Shown here: positions 2,296-64,000 of the stretch, in pieces
Layout of the letters: every line of letters begins with the position of its first letter
Numbering within the stretch: the stretch's first letter is position 1
Assembly (NCBI RefSeq): GCF_964213995.1
Contig: NW_027590147.1
Span: 434,001-498,000 of the forward strand
Length of the DNA: 64,000 nucleotides
Direction: 5' to 3'
Source of the DNA: Mustelus asterias
Taxonomy: Eukaryota
Position numbers and translations under genes: made by a program
Notes under the pieces: generated by a model
What the model was told of the DNA's origin: nothing
What the model saw: the letters and a program-made list of their open reading frames with translations, nothing else
The model's database searches: none

Positions 2296-2750
2296 AGCTG
2301 CGCATGCGCCCTGCTACCTATCGTCCCTCTGAAGATAGAGGTTCTGAACCAGCCCCTGAAACCACGCCCATTGTGACCCGTCACCGACAGCAGCGCATGC
2401 GCTCTCCTTCGCCGCTGAAACAAGATGGCGGCCGAAAACCGGGGCCTGTTCCTGGGAAAAAAAAACCCGGGAGCTGCAAACCCGGAACCGGCATGGTCTT
2501 ATCCGGGCCTTGCAACCTGGAGCGGGCATTCGTGAAGCCTCCGCTCCCTCCCCACCCCGACTCCATTCCTCCCTCCGCCATACTGACTCTCACCCGCTGG
2601 AAAAAGCGTCCCCCGCACTCGCAGGGCTCCGAGCAAAGTGGCAGTACGCATGCTCCAGATACAGCACTGCGCCTGCGCAATAGGCTGCTGTGGAATGAAG
2701 AGGACACTTTCCCACCCGCAGGCGTACCTGGGAATTAACGGCGCCATTGT
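2296..2750. promoter_or_regulatory. CpG-rich promoter / first-exon region
   Basis: GCGCATGCGC (NRF1-type) at 2300 and 2393, CAAGATGGCGGC (YY1-type) at 2421, high CpG density. Confidence 0.7.
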
Positions 2751-3299
2751 CAAAGACATAATAGAAAACTATCTTGTGCAATTAAGATTAATTAATTTTT
2801 AAAAATACATTCCTCTGAATTTGTGATTAATTGGCCTGTGTACTAAGCAGATATTAATGTTCCACTTAAAATTAAAAGAGAAGGTGCTGGAAAAACGCAG
2901 CAGGATTGAGAGAGAACCCACAGAGGCAAGTTATGAATAGACTTCAGACTGAAGCAACAATAAAAGAAACCCACACGGGGGGGCCAGGAACTGAGTTCTG
3001 CATCCAACAGACAGCCTGAATCATGCCAGCTCCTAACTGTGTTTTTAAACTCGAACTTATAAAACAGAAACAAAACTCTGTAGAGTCTGTTTCTGGGACA
3101 AAGAAAATAAATACTGGAGATATTCATCAGGCCAGGCAGCCTGTGAGAGTCACAAACAGAATTGAGGGCTCAGGTTGCTGACCTACCCTCAGTCGGCAAT
3201 TAAACATTTAGAGTCAGTCACTGACTAATGGCGGTCATAATTCCCACAATGCTCGGCGCCTCAGAAACCCCTCCATTCAAAAGTTGTTCGCTGGAATTC

Positions 3300-4112
3300 A
3301 CTCATCATAGAATCCTTACAGTGCAGAAAGAGGCCATTCGATCCGTCGAGTCTGTACTGCAACTGCGACAATATATTCTGCACCCGACTCTTTTCCTTTC
3401 CCCCTATGTACTCCATCAATTTACGTTTTTTTCTGTATAGCACGCAAGAAATAATACTTTTCACTGTATCCCAGAACATGCGACAATAATAAATCAAATT
3501 AGACACTACATATCTCGGACACCAAGGGACAAATTTACCTAACCTGCACATCTTTGGGCTATGAGAAAAAACCGGAGCACCCAGAGGAAGATTGTGCAAA
3601 CTCCACACATGAGGTGGAGATGCCAGCGCTGAATTGGGGTGAGCACAGTAAGTAGTCTCAAAATACAAGATTAAAGACCAACAGGTTTATTTGGAACCAC
3701 AAGCTTTCAGAGCGCTGATGAAGGAGCAGTGCTCTGCAAGCTCGTGATTCCAAATAACCAAGAGAAAATGCTGGAAAATCTCAGCAGGTTTGGCAACATC
3801 TGTAAGGAGAGAAAAGAACTGACATTTCGAGTCCAGATGACTCTTTGTCAAAGCTTTGATAAAGGGTGATGTGGACTCGAAGCATCAGTTCTTTTCTCTC
3901 CTTACAGAGCCTGCCATATCTGCTGAGATTTTCCAGCAATTTCTCTTTTGGTTTCAAATTCCAGCATCCACAATAATTTACTTTGATTCCAAATAAACTT
4001 ATTGGACTTTAACTTGGTGTTATGAGACTTCTTCCTGAGCAAACTCCACACAGTCACCCACCGCTGGAATCGAACTCAGTGAGGCAGCAGTGCTAACCGC
4101 TGTGCCACAGTG
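3300..4112 (-). mobile_element. HE1-like SINE split by a Penelope-terminus palindrome that itself contains a second palindromic insert
   Basis: SINE halves at ~3300-3609 and ~4036-4112 with TG(T/A)GCAAACTCCACACA duplicated on both sides of the insert. Confidence 0.8.
3758..3983. mobile_element. Palindromic short repeat (family B) with degenerate hammerhead cores; axis ~3853
   Basis: GAGAAAATGCTGGAAAATCTCAGCAG ... CTGCTGAGATTTTCCAGCAATTTCTC arms; TGATTCCAAATAA direct repeat at 3745 and 3984. Confidence 0.75.
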
Positions 4113-6025
4113 ATGGTAGTTTGCTGCAAATTTCGGGTGATAACAATGGGCTGGATGTTGCTCAGAATGTGGAGCACTGCAGCAAAGTACAGAGAGACAG
4201 AGACAGAGCAGCAGACTGGACTGAGAAATGGAGTATGCAGACTGGAACTGGCAGCATGAGGAGAGGTTATTTAGTCTAACACTCACAGCAATCTACAACC
4301 CACCCCCATTACCGAGACAGTGAGACAGAGATTACAAACACTCACCAACACAGCTCCAGTGAAACGTCCCAGGAAAAAGGGGGAATCTGTGGCAGTTCCT
4401 GTCCTGATATAGCCCCGGGACTGTCACTCAAACCCCCAACCCGGCCCAGTTCACAGCTCAGCCTCTCAGCTTGCAGCTTCCTGCACCTTGAGCCAACCCT
4501 GTCCAGGTGTGGGAGGTCTGTGGAACTACAGAGTGGGGGGAGGGGTGACCTCCTGCTGTGCCCCAAATAGTTTCTCCTTCCCCTCCCCCTTGGCGCTCTC
4601 AGCTCTCAATGTGGATGCGTTGATGGACATTGCAGAGCCTCACTGAGCTGCGCCTGTCCCTTATCCTGGGTCACCCCCTTCCCCTGGGTTCAGTGTGTTC
4701 AGTTCGCTGCTTCTTTCCCTGCTGAACCTTCAGTTAATCAAAAGCAGAAAGTGCTGGAAAACCTCAGCAGGTCTGACAGCATCTGTGATCATCCAGACTG
4801 GAAGCATTGACTCTATTCTCTCTCCACAGATGCTGAGATTTCCAGCATTTTCTGTTTCTGTTTCAGATTCCAGCACCCGCAGTATTTTGCTTTTATCTTA
4901 AACAAGCATTCTTTGATGGCCTTTACCCTGATTGCTCCTTTCCAGAGCTTCCCACCTTCTGCTATTGTCCCTGACTCCCACATTAACTCTGTCATTCCTC
5001 CCCTTTACCCCGCTCACCCTGTCTAAAGTCAGGCTCAGAGTTTTACCGCCATCTCCCCCTCCCTCAGCCTCCACATCCCAACACCCGGAATCTCTAACCC
5101 AGCGGTTCCAGTTTATCTGGTTTGAGTTCAGATTTGCCGCAGCACCGACAGGATTTCACTTCAAACCAGCCGGAACTGATTGCTCACAAATCCCAAAATG
5201 TTTCTCCAGCAGCCCTGACTTGTTAATGTTGTTTAAAGTCAGCGCCCAAATGCAGCTACTCTCCTCAGTTTAAAAAACTTCTCCGTTTAATCTAAGGGAT
5301 TATTCACACCAGACACAAATATAAAATTGTGAACGTTACCCACCCACCCCGCCCCCCCCCCTCCCCCCACCCCCCACCCTCCCCCCCTCCCCGGCCACCC
5401 AGACCCGAGCTGGGGTGTCCTGAGTAAGAGACATCTGTTCCAGGTGTGACAATTCTTACACATTGTCTGGTTGACATCAAACGGAAAACGCTGGAAATAT
5501 TCATGAATGAAAGCAAATTGCTGCTTTTCTCAAAAGGGTCGCCTGGACTCGAAACCTCAGCTCTTTTTGTCTCCTTACAGATGCTGCCAGACCTGCTGAG
5601 ATTTTCCAGCGTTTTCTCTTTTGGCTGGAAATACTCAACAAGTCAGGCAGCCTCTGTGGAGAGAGAAACAGACTCAGTGTGACCTGTCATCGGAACTGGG
5701 AAATATAATATTATTTCTCGCAACTAAAAGAGACACTTTACAGCCTTCAGAACAAAACTGAGTCCAACAATTTTACACCACAATCTCTGCCCCCATTGTG
5801 TTCTGTGTTTCGTTGCTGCTTTTTTCACCTCATTTCCCTCTTGTTTACTTTACTTTACATTCAGACTATCGCTAACCGGCTATTCACACCTCATCCAGAA
5901 CATCTTTTGTGTCTTTACTTGTCCCATTACCACTCGCTTTGGTCTTGGGCCGTGAAACATTTTGTCAGTTTACAGATCTTTCATTTTGCCTCCTCCACCT
6001 CCCTCTCTCAATTCTTCAGAGGTCA

Positions 6026-62047: not shown

Positions 62048-62139
62048 TAGGTTACAGTATAATTTGATTCCTAATGTTATTGACTGCACCCGTATCCCTA
62101 ATTTTCACATCGCAGCAGAAAAAGCTCACTGTTCACATA

Positions 62140-62630
62140 TGAGGAGTTTCGATGGCGTGCGCTTTACCCAACATTCCTCGCGGTCGGGAATGGTCCCTAT
62201 CCACAGCACGGGAGAGAGGTGCGCATGCGCAGTCAGGCAGCGTTTGGCGCATGTGCAGCGTGGATGATGGCAAGGAGATACATTCCTCTGTCTCATCAGC
62301 AACCGGTAAGGATGCGGATACATGGAGGGAGGATTGGAACCGGCAGATGGACGGAGAGGGTTTCTAAATATCTGGTGAAGGTCTCAAACCTCTCATAGTA
62401 ATCCGCAGGTCCCGTGTTTGTAGCTTCAGGTCTTTTTCCCGAGACGAGGCTCAGGTTAACAGCCGCCATCTTGATTCGGCAGGGAGCAGAGCGCATGCGC
62501 TGGTGTCTTGGTGACGCAACAGTGAGTGGGCGGGGCTTCAGCGTTTTCTGCTCCCAACCGGGTCCTCGTGACCGGAAAGCATCGCAAACTGAGCAACAGG
62601 TTTTAAACAGCTTCACCCACTCCCAGGGAA
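62140..62630 (+). promoter_or_regulatory. CpG-rich promoter/first exon; inverted paralog of 42120-42540
   Basis: GCGCATGCGC at 62221 and 62491, CCG|GTAAGG donor at ~62304, reverse YY1-type motif at 62462-62473. Confidence 0.75.
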
Positions 62631-63365
62631 AAATGGTGTATGAAAGTAAGCTTGCAGGAACATAAAAACTGACTGTAAAAATTTCTACAGATATATAAAG
62701 AGAAAATGATTGACAAAATTTTAGAAATGGGAGAATTCATCACGGGGAATAAAGGGCCGAAGGGCCTGTACTGCGCTGTATTGCTCTATGTTCTGTGGTC
62801 TATGGATCTGTCAATCACCCTCAACCAGCATCTTCAGGAGAATTGGGAGGGTGAATATGAGATACAGCAGAGTGAGAATGGAGGGAGAGTGTGTGGGATG
62901 GAGTTCACAGCTTTGGGGAATGAGAGAGGAAAGAATGTTCCAGAGAAACTAGAATTGTTCTGAATTTCTATCCTGTACTGACACTGATCACTTTTGTAAA
63001 TTCTTTTTACAGGATATTGGAAGGGGAGGATTTACAGACAAATTTCAAACCAAACGTCACATCAACATCTGACATCCTCACTCAATTCATCGGGACCTGA
63101 ATATTTCGACCTTTGATTCTCGAAGGAGAAATGTTTCTCTGTTCTGTGCTTCAAAAACTTTAATCATTTGTGTGACTTGAAAAGCACCGAGACACACACA
63201 CACCTGAGTGAGAGTGTTCCAGTGCACTGAGTGTGGAAAGAGCTTTAACCAGTTACACAGCCTGAAAATACATTGCAGCATTCACAGCGGGGAGAGACTG
63301 TACCCGTGTTCTGTGTGAGATTTAACTGATTGTTTAACCTGGAGAGTCACAAGGACACCTGCACC

Positions 63366-64000
63366 ATGGAGAAACCGTGGAAATGTGGGGACTGTGGGAA
63401 GGGATTCATTTCCCCATCTCAGCTGGAAGCTCATCGACGCAGTCACACTGGGGAGAGACCATTCACTTGCTGTGTGTGTGGCAAGGGATTCAGTCAGTTA
63501 TCGAATCTGCGGACGCACCAGCGAGTTCACACTGGGGAGAGGCCGTTCACCTGCTCTCAGTGTGGGGAGGGATTCACTCGGTTATCCAGCCTGCAGACTC
63601 ATCAGCGAGTTCACACTGGGGAGAGACCATTCACCTGCTCTCAGTGTGGGAAGAGATTCACTCAGACATCCCACCTGCAAACGCACCAGCGAGTTCACAC
63701 TGGGGAGAGGCCATTCACCTGCTCTGTGTGTGGGAAGGGATTCACTGACTTATCCAGCCTGCGGGGACACCAGCGAATTCACACTGGGGAGAGACCATTC
63801 ACCTGCTCTCAGTGTGGGGAGGGATTCACTCAGTCATCCGCCCTGCGGAGACACCAGCGAGTTCACACTGGGGAGAAGCTGTTCACCTGCTCTCAGTGTC
63901 TAAAGGGATTCACTCAATTATCCCACCTGCAAACACACCAGCGAGTTCACACTGGGGAGAGGCCATTCACCTGCTCTCAATGTGGGAAGGGATTCACTGA
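63366..64000 (+). CDS. C2H2 zinc-finger protein, 3'-partial (7 fingers plus the start of an 8th); absent from the ORF track
   Basis: Manual translation from [41 protein letters not shown].. open to the window end; acceptor AG at 63011-63012. Confidence 0.9.

What the first reader, a model, noticed from the sequence alone, without database searches (positions are those of the whole stretch)
2296..64000. Effector-less ZNF cluster built from head-to-head cassettes with shared promoter grammar
Seen: minus gene / CpG island / plus gene recurs around 18 kb, 42.5 kb, 49.5 kb and 62.3 kb; the 31 kb island has only a minus gene and the 2.5 kb island points off-window. Islands share NRF1-, CCAAT- and GC-box-type motifs, several with a YY1-type motif. 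Proteins are pure finger arrays. Known: KRAB-ZNF (tetrapods, coelacanth) and FiNZ (cyprinids) expansions are linked to TE silencing. Inference: an independent chondrichthyan ZNF expansion duplicating as divergent cassettes, possibly binding TEs without a recognised repressor domain.
Basis: partly seen in the sequence, partly recalled or inferred. Interest (0 to 1): 0.7.

Follow-up and report, generated by a model that had tools for sequence, protein, structure and literature searches.

The report
Shark zinc-finger cluster lacking effector domains
This stretch of shark DNA is a crowded, partly decayed cluster of duplicated zinc-finger genes that appear to make DNA-binding arrays with no attached silencing domain and often sit back to back on shared promoters, a little-studied counterpart of the gene families that police transposons in mammals and zebrafish.

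Summary
The layout is real. Nine C2H2 arrays alternate strand at 7 of 8 junctions. CpG islands sit in 4 of 4 divergent gaps and 0 of 3 convergent gaps.

'Effector-less' holds at DNA level. Each finger ORF is closed by an in-frame stop 3-25 codons above its ATG, and the exon leader is a decayed linker plus dead fingers without codon constraint. Pfam finds no effector in 217 intervening ORFs.

The shared 'grammar' is homology: five exon-1/intron-1 modules match in the sense of their gene. The two arms of an island are old inverted copies of one module; the 18-kb island is a separate type.

Duplication of whole cassettes is not supported. Exons and promoter modules have discordant closest relatives, and only the 42-kb pair has two intact ORFs and two modules.

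Finger scaffolds are under purifying selection; contact residues are neutral to accelerated (pN/pS 1.2-1.5). The shark expansion is already counted (475-3586 ZNF ORFs, Wells 2023 supplement), but I found no description of this architecture. Expression, bidirectional transcription and TE binding are untested.

Verdict: new variant of a known kind, interest 0.5.

The parts
1..191 (-). Z0: intron end and start (about 130) of a ZNF exon that runs off the window; partner of the 2.5-kb island
2290..2740 (-). CpG island with exon-1/intron-1 module facing Z0 (predicted donor 2593; NRF1-type 2300, 2393; YY1-type 2422)
12866..13394 (-). Z1b: broken gene, 130-aa ORF from 13258, 3 intact fingers; acceptor region replaced by a Penelope-type element; 3' flank 92-93% like that of Z3
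13400..14414 (.). Penelope-type element fragment (GIY-YIG hit); related copies at 33153-34073 and 43145-44022
16858..17413 (-). Z1a: intron end, acceptor 17181 and decayed leader, truncated before the ATG; no finger ORF
17702..18452 (.). 18-kb island of a second type (CCAAT-rich, no NRF1/YY1-type words) between inverted arms 17702-17826 / 18321-18452 (83%, 132 bp)
20310..22240 (+). Z2: acceptor 20310, decayed leader, ORF 20650-21855 (401 aa, 14 fingers, period-3 internal repeat), decayed finger tail
28104..29591 (-). Z3: acceptor 29272, leader, ORF 28946-28104 (280 aa, 10 fingers)
30380..31300 (.). 31-kb island: NRF1/GC/CCAAT core (31072-31267), weak module facing Z3, U2 snRNA-like fragment 30887-31048 (-); no plus-strand gene
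31299..32000 (.). 87-bp tandem repeat (95% at period 87) where the plus arm would begin
36307..37715 (-). Z4: acceptor 37695, two stops, first ATG 37512 (weak context), 401 aa, 13 fingers
38163..38790 (.). Two ZNF exon-start remnants, one plus (acceptor 38212) and one minus (about 38761, 81% like Z0)
42122..42930 (.). 42-kb island: module facing left (42538-42122, donor 42442), NRF1/GC/CCAAT core (42560-42720), module facing Z5 (weak donor 42775); the two arms are homologous in inverted order
44133..46080 (+). Z5: acceptor 44266, leader, ORF 44608-45687 (359 aa, 11 fingers), decayed finger tail
48865..49352 (-). Z6: frameshifted finger remnant joined by deletion directly to half of the promoter core
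49340..49760 (.). 49.5-kb island: truncated core plus module facing Z7 (donor 49504)
51146..52367 (+). Z7: acceptor 51146, linker closed by a stop, ORF 51255-52367 (370 aa, 11 fingers)
58174..59811 (-). Z8: acceptor 59694, leader frame open for 55 codons to the shared stop, ORF 59223-58174 (349 aa, 10 fingers)
61116..61181 (-). isolated single-finger remnant
62214..62627 (+). 62-kb island: one module only, facing Z9 (donor 62306), 83% identical to the left arm of the 42-kb island
62802..64000 (+). Z9: intron end, acceptor 63013, leader, ORF from 63366 (at least 211 aa, 7 fingers) running off the window; 82% like Z3 over 1.2 kb

Best explanation
A birth-and-death cluster of a chondrichthyan tandem C2H2-ZNF family. 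Each gene is inferred to have a short first exon in a CpG island, a YY1/NRF1-type module about 120-170 nt into intron 1, and one large ZNF exon. The first 110-470 nt of that exon are an ancestral acidic linker and 2-3 fingers that have become untranslated leader. Translation restarts at an ATG that sits in place of the glycine of a TGEKP linker (MEKPWKC) or just after the linker (MEGK), giving pure finger arrays. Head-to-head pairs arose by old inverted duplication of one promoter/exon-1 module, at least twice. Since then single genes, ZNF exons and modules have been copied, inverted and reshuffled separately, and many copies have died. Intact copies most likely act as ubiquitously expressed, sequence-diversifying DNA binders that occupy repeat-derived sites and act by blocking or competition, or by cofactors that bind the fingers. 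Shown: anatomy, homology, closed leaders, selection pattern. Inferred: exon joins, transcription, translation start. Guessed: targets and mode of action.
For: In-frame stop 3-25 codons above the ATG in 8 of 8 ORFs. AG sites in those gaps have pyrimidine fractions 0.26-0.58 (one 0.74, not a YAG) against 0.63-0.79 for the 9 shared acceptors. Linker: 7 of 9 paralogs carry clear non-3n gaps; changes per codon position 40/42/49 (p=0.60) against 8/17/29 (p=0.002) just after the ATG. No effector family in 217 ORFs while controls hit. 0 of 17 chondrichthyan hits carry PF01352, whereas 4 tetrapod hits do (accession meaning recalled). Modules facing Z0, Z4, Z5, Z7 and Z9 match in the sense of their gene in all 10 pairs (z 5.5-190) and not in the opposite sense; the 18-kb arms match only each other (z 53). 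Public models from Pristiophorus and Heterodontus put translated island-like sequence (PR[VL]TAAIF) upstream of the same linker (read by eye). Scaffold pN/pS 0.07-0.45; positions -1, 3, 6: 1.45, 95% CI 1.07-1.89.
Against: No transcript, TSS or protein data. None of 5 window ORFs looked up is in the protein collection. Donors for Z2 and Z5 fall below my crude score threshold and none was found for Z1. Leaders hold 1-9 upstream ATGs, which could block translation. The contact-residue excess loses significance for all four positions (1.24, CI 0.93-1.64) and when CpG codons are dropped (1.57, CI 0.94-2.43), on only 13 finger pairs of uncertain orthology. Some Pristiophorus and other models keep the roughly 45-aa acidic linker in frame with the fingers (P0006, P0014, P0020, P0021), so not all family members are bare. 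The cross-species module match was significant by tblastn only for one Mustelus model and weakly for one Heterodontus model.
Confidence: 0.6

Rival explanations
1. One reading: the gene-island-gene cassette is the unit of duplication and both arms are co-expressed.
For: Islands in 4 of 4 divergent gaps. The NRF1/GC/CCAAT core recurs at 31, 42 and 49.5 kb at 82-84%, with the start of the same exon 1 at 31 and 49.5 kb.
Against: No alignment crosses a cassette. The three closest relationships (Z1b-Z3, Z3-Z9, module Z4-module Z9) are mutually discordant. The 18-kb island is unrelated to the others, and only 1 of 4 pairs has two intact ORFs and two modules. Ancient cassette copies later overwritten cannot be excluded from one window.
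Confidence: 0.15
2. The family has an unrecognised small effector: the acidic linker, or a short exon not in Pfam, is translated in a minority of intact members or isoforms, as FiNZ is in cyprinids. The bare genes here are degraded offshoots.
For: The linker is recognisable in models from Pristiophorus, Heterodontus, Stegostoma, Scyliorhinus, Cetorhinus and Carcharodon, and in frame with fingers in several. The predicted Z7 exon 1 has an ATG in the phase of the linker, stopped 3 codons before the finger ORF. FiNZ is only 28 aa, acidic, with no similarity to known domains (PMC10547256 section 4).
Against: No codon-position bias in the linker and frame breaks in most paralogs. Upstream peptides differ between models (P0020, P0021, P0006) and between window modules. 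4 of 6 models that reach the first dead finger end at the same stop as five window genes.
Confidence: 0.15
3. Mostly non-adaptive: a repeat-rich, duplication-prone region where housekeeping-type promoters and ZNF exons multiply and decay, with most products rapidly degraded and no TE-specific role.
For: At least 6 of 14 ZNF units are remnants or broken and two more have dead tails. About 25% of the window matches three TE classes. Tandem C2H2 mRNAs are substrates of no-go decay in zebrafish (PMC11620358, abstract only).
Against: Seven ORFs of 211-401 aa stay open beside leaders riddled with indels, the scaffold is under clear purifying selection, and contact residues change about three times faster than other non-C/H sites.
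Confidence: 0.2

Closest known systems
KRAB-ZNF clusters (sarcopterygians)
   Same: Clustered, amplified by gene and segment duplication (PMC10547255, passages seen); one large finger exon with TGEKP-type linkers; fast change at contact residues.
   Different: No KRAB exon or any in-frame upstream exon; the start codon lies inside the finger exon. KRAB families are enriched among those missing in cartilaginous fishes (PMC8455134 passage).
FiNZ-ZNFs of cyprinids (Wells et al. 2023, PMC10547256)
   Same: Lineage-specific expansion, dense clustering among TEs, contact residues most variable (passages).
   Different: FiNZ is a conserved coding exon upstream of the finger exon; here upstream exons show no conserved frame and the leader is closed by stops.
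Chondrichthyan ZNF ORFs counted in Wells et al. 2023 and RefSeq 'zinc finger protein 239/850/XlCOF-like' models
   Same: Same family: MEKPWKC/MEGK starts, same linker, same stop. Counts 475-3586 per genome in 8 assemblies.
   Different: The main text has no passage with shark, chondrichth-, cartilaginous or elasmobranch; leader, promoter module and pairing are not described there.
Vertebrate CpG-island bidirectional promoters
   Same: NF-Y, NRF1, SP1 and YY1 motifs are the listed enriched set (PMC10887517 passage).
   Different: Here both arms are paralogous and the motifs are shared by duplication. Divergent transcription is not shown.

Membership tests
KRAB-ZNF | KRAB domain encoded upstream and in frame with the fingers | tested here: not met
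   No hit in 217 ORFs; in-frame stops above 8 of 8 ATGs; 0 of 17 chondrichthyan relatives with PF01352
KRAB-ZNF | Tandem Kruppel-type C2H2 array in one 3' exon | tested here: met
   (single exon inferred from uninterrupted ORFs)
KRAB-ZNF | TRIM28-dependent repression at TEs | not testable with these tools
   needs cells
FiNZ-ZNF | Conserved 28-aa acidic N-terminal domain on its own exon | tested here: not met
   No FiNZ profile was available to search, but any upstream exon is out of frame and predicted exon-1 peptides differ among paralogs
FiNZ-ZNF | Positive selection at base-contacting residues | tested here: inconclusive
   pN/pS 1.24 (0.93-1.64) for -1/2/3/6; 1.45 (1.07-1.89) for -1/3/6; CI includes 1 without CpG codons
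SCAN-, BTB-, SET/PRDM9-type ZNFs | Accessory domain in frame | tested here: not met
Chondrichthyan tandem ZNF expansion | Shared linker/leader and first-finger sequence with shark models | tested here: met
Bidirectional (head-to-head) promoter pair | Divergent TSSs within 1 kb, both used | not testable with these tools
   Divergent exon-1 modules predicted at 18 and 42 kb only; no transcript data obtained
Cassette-duplicated cluster | Homology spanning gene-island-gene and congruent relationships of the arms | tested here: not met

The most novel reading that the evidence does not exclude
Sharks and rays run a third vertebrate ZNF system of over a thousand genes with no effector domain at all. 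An ancestor's N-terminal part was switched off by a stop shared between galeomorph and squalomorph sharks, translation restarted at a linker-derived ATG, and a portable bidirectional promoter module spread the genes in inverted pairs. The bare arrays track TEs by changing contact residues and restrain them without a KRAB- or FiNZ-like recruiter.
Probability: 0.2. Interest if true: 0.8.

Novelty: new variant of a known kind. Interest (0 to 1): 0.5.

Why it matters
Wells et al. found that the ZNF-TE correlation is independent of accessory domains and left dozens of families uncharacterised (PMC10547256 passages). Sharks have among the largest counts and lack KRAB-ZNFs. If their genes are truly bare arrays, they are a natural test of whether binding alone is enough to restrain repeats. 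The shared leader, start and promoter module also give handles for family-wide annotation and knockdown, where current models often merge several genes with TE sequence.

Tried and rejected
No whole genome is held for this window, so nothing genome-wide could be counted.

Sequencing runs: no RNA holder listed. 14 runs guessed as RNA held only 0.05-0.14 of the words and 4 others held about half; none could be laid on the window, so they are no evidence either way.

Rfam: 9 matches, none at its gathering score. The miRNA/snoRNA hits are hairpins in repeats; only the U2-like fragment is noted. ARAGORN found 0 tRNAs. ESM Atlas on the linker of P0020 gave only ZNF clusters below 0.9 and no structure hit: uninformative. 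Earlier scan findings: none.

Global identity tables of the modules were near their shuffled baseline (0.63) except the Z4/Z9 module pair (0.87), so I relied on local scores. Some exon-1 ends were off by a few bases; donor positions are from that call's donor scan. The Z0 acceptor was mislocated and read from the translation. The reciprocal-best finger pN/pS (1.55) is biased by choosing pairs on identity and by the C/H pattern, so one search is quoted.

Rejected: a coding mini-exon in the conserved intron-end block (10-nt gap in one paralog, wrong phase); recoding of the shared TGA (frameshifts surround it); a conserved exon-1 peptide (phases differ, and its ATG is part of the YY1-type word). 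ZNF binding motifs were not predicted.

Literature: 8 searches found no description of shark ZNF gene architecture or pairing. The library lacks most subscription journals, and 3 supplementary files of PMC10547256 were not searched.
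Full report
Setting. The window is shark DNA. Its closest protein relatives are models from Mustelus, Heterodontus, Pristiophorus, Carcharodon, Scyliorhinus, Stegostoma, Cetorhinus, Heptranchias and the skate Amblyraja. A CR1-type RT fragment at 32.2-32.9 kb is 98% identical over 230 aa to a Mustelus asterias model. With window-derived seeds, CR1-type, Penelope-type and SINE-type repeats cover 12.8, 5.4 and 6.4% and finger DNA 14.3%. The class names rest on Pfam RVT_1 and GIY-YIG hits and on recall. 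No whole genome was held and no transcript data were obtained, so exon joins below are predictions.

Layout. Nine arrays with 81 stop-free fingers lie in the order - + - - + - + - +. Alternation at 7 of 8 junctions has p=0.035; counting five remnants, 9 of 13 has p=0.13. Six islands have CpG o/e 0.61-0.89 against 0.38 overall. They fill 4 of 4 divergent gaps, 0 of 3 convergent gaps and the tandem gap at 31 kb, and the 2.5-kb island faces an exon start at about 130 on the minus strand. GCGCATGCGC occurs 8 times, all in islands (2, 0, 1, 2, 1, 2). CGCCATCTTG occurs 3 times (2.5, 42, 62 kb). CCAAT has 17 of 141 copies in islands (0, 4, 8, 3, 1, 1) and GGGCGG 7 of 21. Island borders were drawn after seeing the motifs, and the factor names are recalled consensus matches. 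The 18-kb island lacks the NRF1- and YY1-type words; the 2.5-kb island lacks CCAAT and GC boxes.

Which genes are intact. Open finger ORFs: Z2 401 aa, Z3 280, Z4 401, Z5 359, Z7 370, Z8 349, Z9 at least 211. Broken: Z1a (truncated before the ATG), Z1b (130 aa, acceptor lost to a Penelope-type insertion), Z6 (frameshifted, fused by deletion to half a promoter core), remnants at 38.2 (+), 38.8 (-) and 61.1 kb. Of the four 'cassettes', only that at 42 kb has two intact ORFs and two exon-1 modules, and even there two remnants lie between the island and Z4.

Are the proteins effector-less? The nine complete exon starts share an acceptor followed by a homologous leader: an acidic linker frame, then 2-3 dead fingers, then the ORF. 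In 8 of 8 ORFs an in-frame stop lies 3-25 codons above the ATG. The AG sites in those gaps lack the pyrimidine tract of the shared acceptors (0.26-0.58, one 0.74 that is not a YAG, against 0.63-0.79). So an exon spliced to the shared acceptor cannot be read into the fingers. The linker shows clear non-3n gaps in 7 of 9 paralogs and no codon-position bias (40/42/49, p=0.60), whereas the first 42 codons after the ATG in six genes do (8/17/29, p=0.002). Six genes start at MEK[PQ][WC]KC, where the ATG stands in place of the glycine of a TGEKP linker; Z7 starts at MEGK. Pfam was run on 217 of the 330 sense-strand ORFs of at least 30 aa outside the TE/finger mask. The 113 left out lie on the plus strand at 2-13 and 32-36 kb, where no plus gene follows directly. 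No KRAB, SCAN, BTB or SET family was hit at E<=0.1, while 10 controls hit their families. Among 34 longer relatives of the Z9 N-terminus, 0 of 17 chondrichthyan proteins carry PF01352 and 4 tetrapod proteins do (accession meaning recalled). Twelve of the 17 are from one species and most are merged multi-gene models, so this is weak support. The stop after FQTSV is present in Z2, Z3, Z5, Z8 and Z9 and ends 4 of the 6 database proteins that reach it, including Pristiophorus and Heterodontus models. It is either ancestral to both shark superorders or a recurrent transition. Against a blanket claim: several models keep the linker in frame with the fingers, with unrelated upstream peptides, and the predicted Z7 exon 1 has an ATG in linker phase that is stopped 3 codons short.

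What the shared grammar is. Oriented by the gene they face, the island segments towards Z0, Z4, Z5, Z7 and Z9 align in all 10 pairs (z 5.5-190 against shuffles), weakly also that towards Z3, and not in the opposite sense. Each has an NRF1-type word, a short exon and a donor (clear at 2593, 42442, 49504 and 62306; weak for Z5), then the YY1-type word inside the predicted intron, followed in four of the five by another NRF1-type word. A separate core of NRF1, GC and CCAAT boxes recurs at 31, 42 and 49.5 kb (82-84%). At 42 kb the two arms are homologous to each other in inverted order. At 18 kb two arms of an unrelated type are 83% identical over 132 bp, also inverted. Head-to-head pairs therefore most simply began as inverted duplications of one module, at least twice. 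The module also occurs beside fingers in a Mustelus model (88% over 61 aa of translation) and weakly in a Heterodontus model. By eye, Pristiophorus and Heterodontus models place its PR[VL]TAAIF translation upstream of the linker. The motif set is the one listed for human bidirectional promoters (PMC10887517, one passage).

Unit of duplication. No self-alignment spans gene-island-gene. Z1b and Z3 share 92-93% 3' flanks but lie under unrelated islands. Z3 and Z9 share 82% over 1.2 kb but have only distantly related modules. The modules facing Z4 and Z9 share 83% over 421 bp, while their fingers match at only 0.71-0.79 against 0.84-0.85 for Z3/Z9. The 62-kb island holds one arm only. This is a mosaic of single-gene duplication, inversion and module exchange. 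Ancient cassette copies cannot be excluded from one window.

Selection. On 13 colinear finger pairs (7 Z3/Z9, 6 within Z2), pN/pS is 0.07 at the structural F and L, 0.26 in linkers and 0.45 at other non-contact sites. It is 1.24 (95% CI 0.93-1.64) at -1/2/3/6 and 1.45 (1.07-1.89) at -1/3/6; without CpG-touched codons the latter is 1.57 (0.94-2.43). The proteins have been maintained as proteins and their contact residues are free or driven to change; positive selection is not established.

Mechanism. Most likely (0.6), intact copies are broadly expressed from CpG-island promoters, initiate after a leader with upstream ATGs, and make bare arrays that bind diversified, probably repeat-derived sites. 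They would act by occupancy or through cofactors that bind the fingers. The last step is inference by analogy with KRAB- and FiNZ-ZNFs. Rivals: largely non-adaptive turnover (0.2), a hidden short effector in some members (0.15), whole-cassette duplication (0.15). These are not fully exclusive.

What is known. PMC10547256 (section 4, keyword passages, supplement rows) lists 475-3586 ZNF ORFs in 8 chondrichthyan assemblies but does not discuss them in the main text. PMC8455134 (passages) reports KRAB enrichment among families missing in cartilaginous fishes. PMC11603059 (passages) notes only PRDM9 in the whale shark. PMC10547255 (passages) describes KZFP clusters as products of gene and segment duplication. 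PMC10380595 and PMC3039671 (passages) added nothing on sharks, and PMC11620358 was seen as abstract and outline only. Eight searches found no account of this gene architecture; the library lacks most subscription journals.

Verdict. Observation partly confirmed, interpretation partly supported. It works like other lineage-specific tandem-ZNF expansions but is not a KRAB- or FiNZ-ZNF cluster. New variant of a known kind; interest 0.5; most novel reading probability 0.2, interest 0.8 if true.

Noticed in passing
window 30887-31048 (-): U2 snRNA-like fragment (26.9 bits, below the gathering score of 46, E 0.21), with a second partial copy, inserted just inside the predicted first exon facing Z3.
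   Followed up: partly
window 60206-60264 and 62214-62627 against 42051-42538: The 42-kb left module and the 59 bp that follow it are found split at 60-62 kb in opposite orientations. This fits an inversion that turned a module from Z8 towards Z9; a shared small internal exon is an alternative.
   Followed up: partly
window 19889-20061, 29332-29513, 17240-17413, 62821-62957: A non-coding block near the intron end is 86-92% identical between paralogs, more than their leaders (about 74-83%); nearby intron-end sequence is also recognisable in a Heterodontus model. Conversion or a regulatory role.
   Followed up: partly
window 32222-33241 (-): Young CR1-type RT fragment; 230 aa are 98% identical to part of a Mustelus asterias model, so the organism is probably a close carcharhiniform relative.
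   Followed up: partly
window 31299-32000: 87-bp tandem repeat of about 8 copies directly after the promoter core, open in two frames by chance of periodicity.
   Followed up: no
protein P0002 (Pristiophorus model): Histone H2A joined to the ZNF linker in one annotated model, hinting at histone genes interspersed in such clusters or read-through; no histone gene was seen in this window.
   Followed up: no
window 20668-21843: Z2 grew by internal triplet duplication: fingers three apart are 83% identical against 58% for neighbours.
   Followed up: yes
window 3760-3955 and 56932-57017: Near-perfect hairpins inside repeats that give sub-threshold miRNA-family hits; probably repeat-derived inverted ends.
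   Followed up: no
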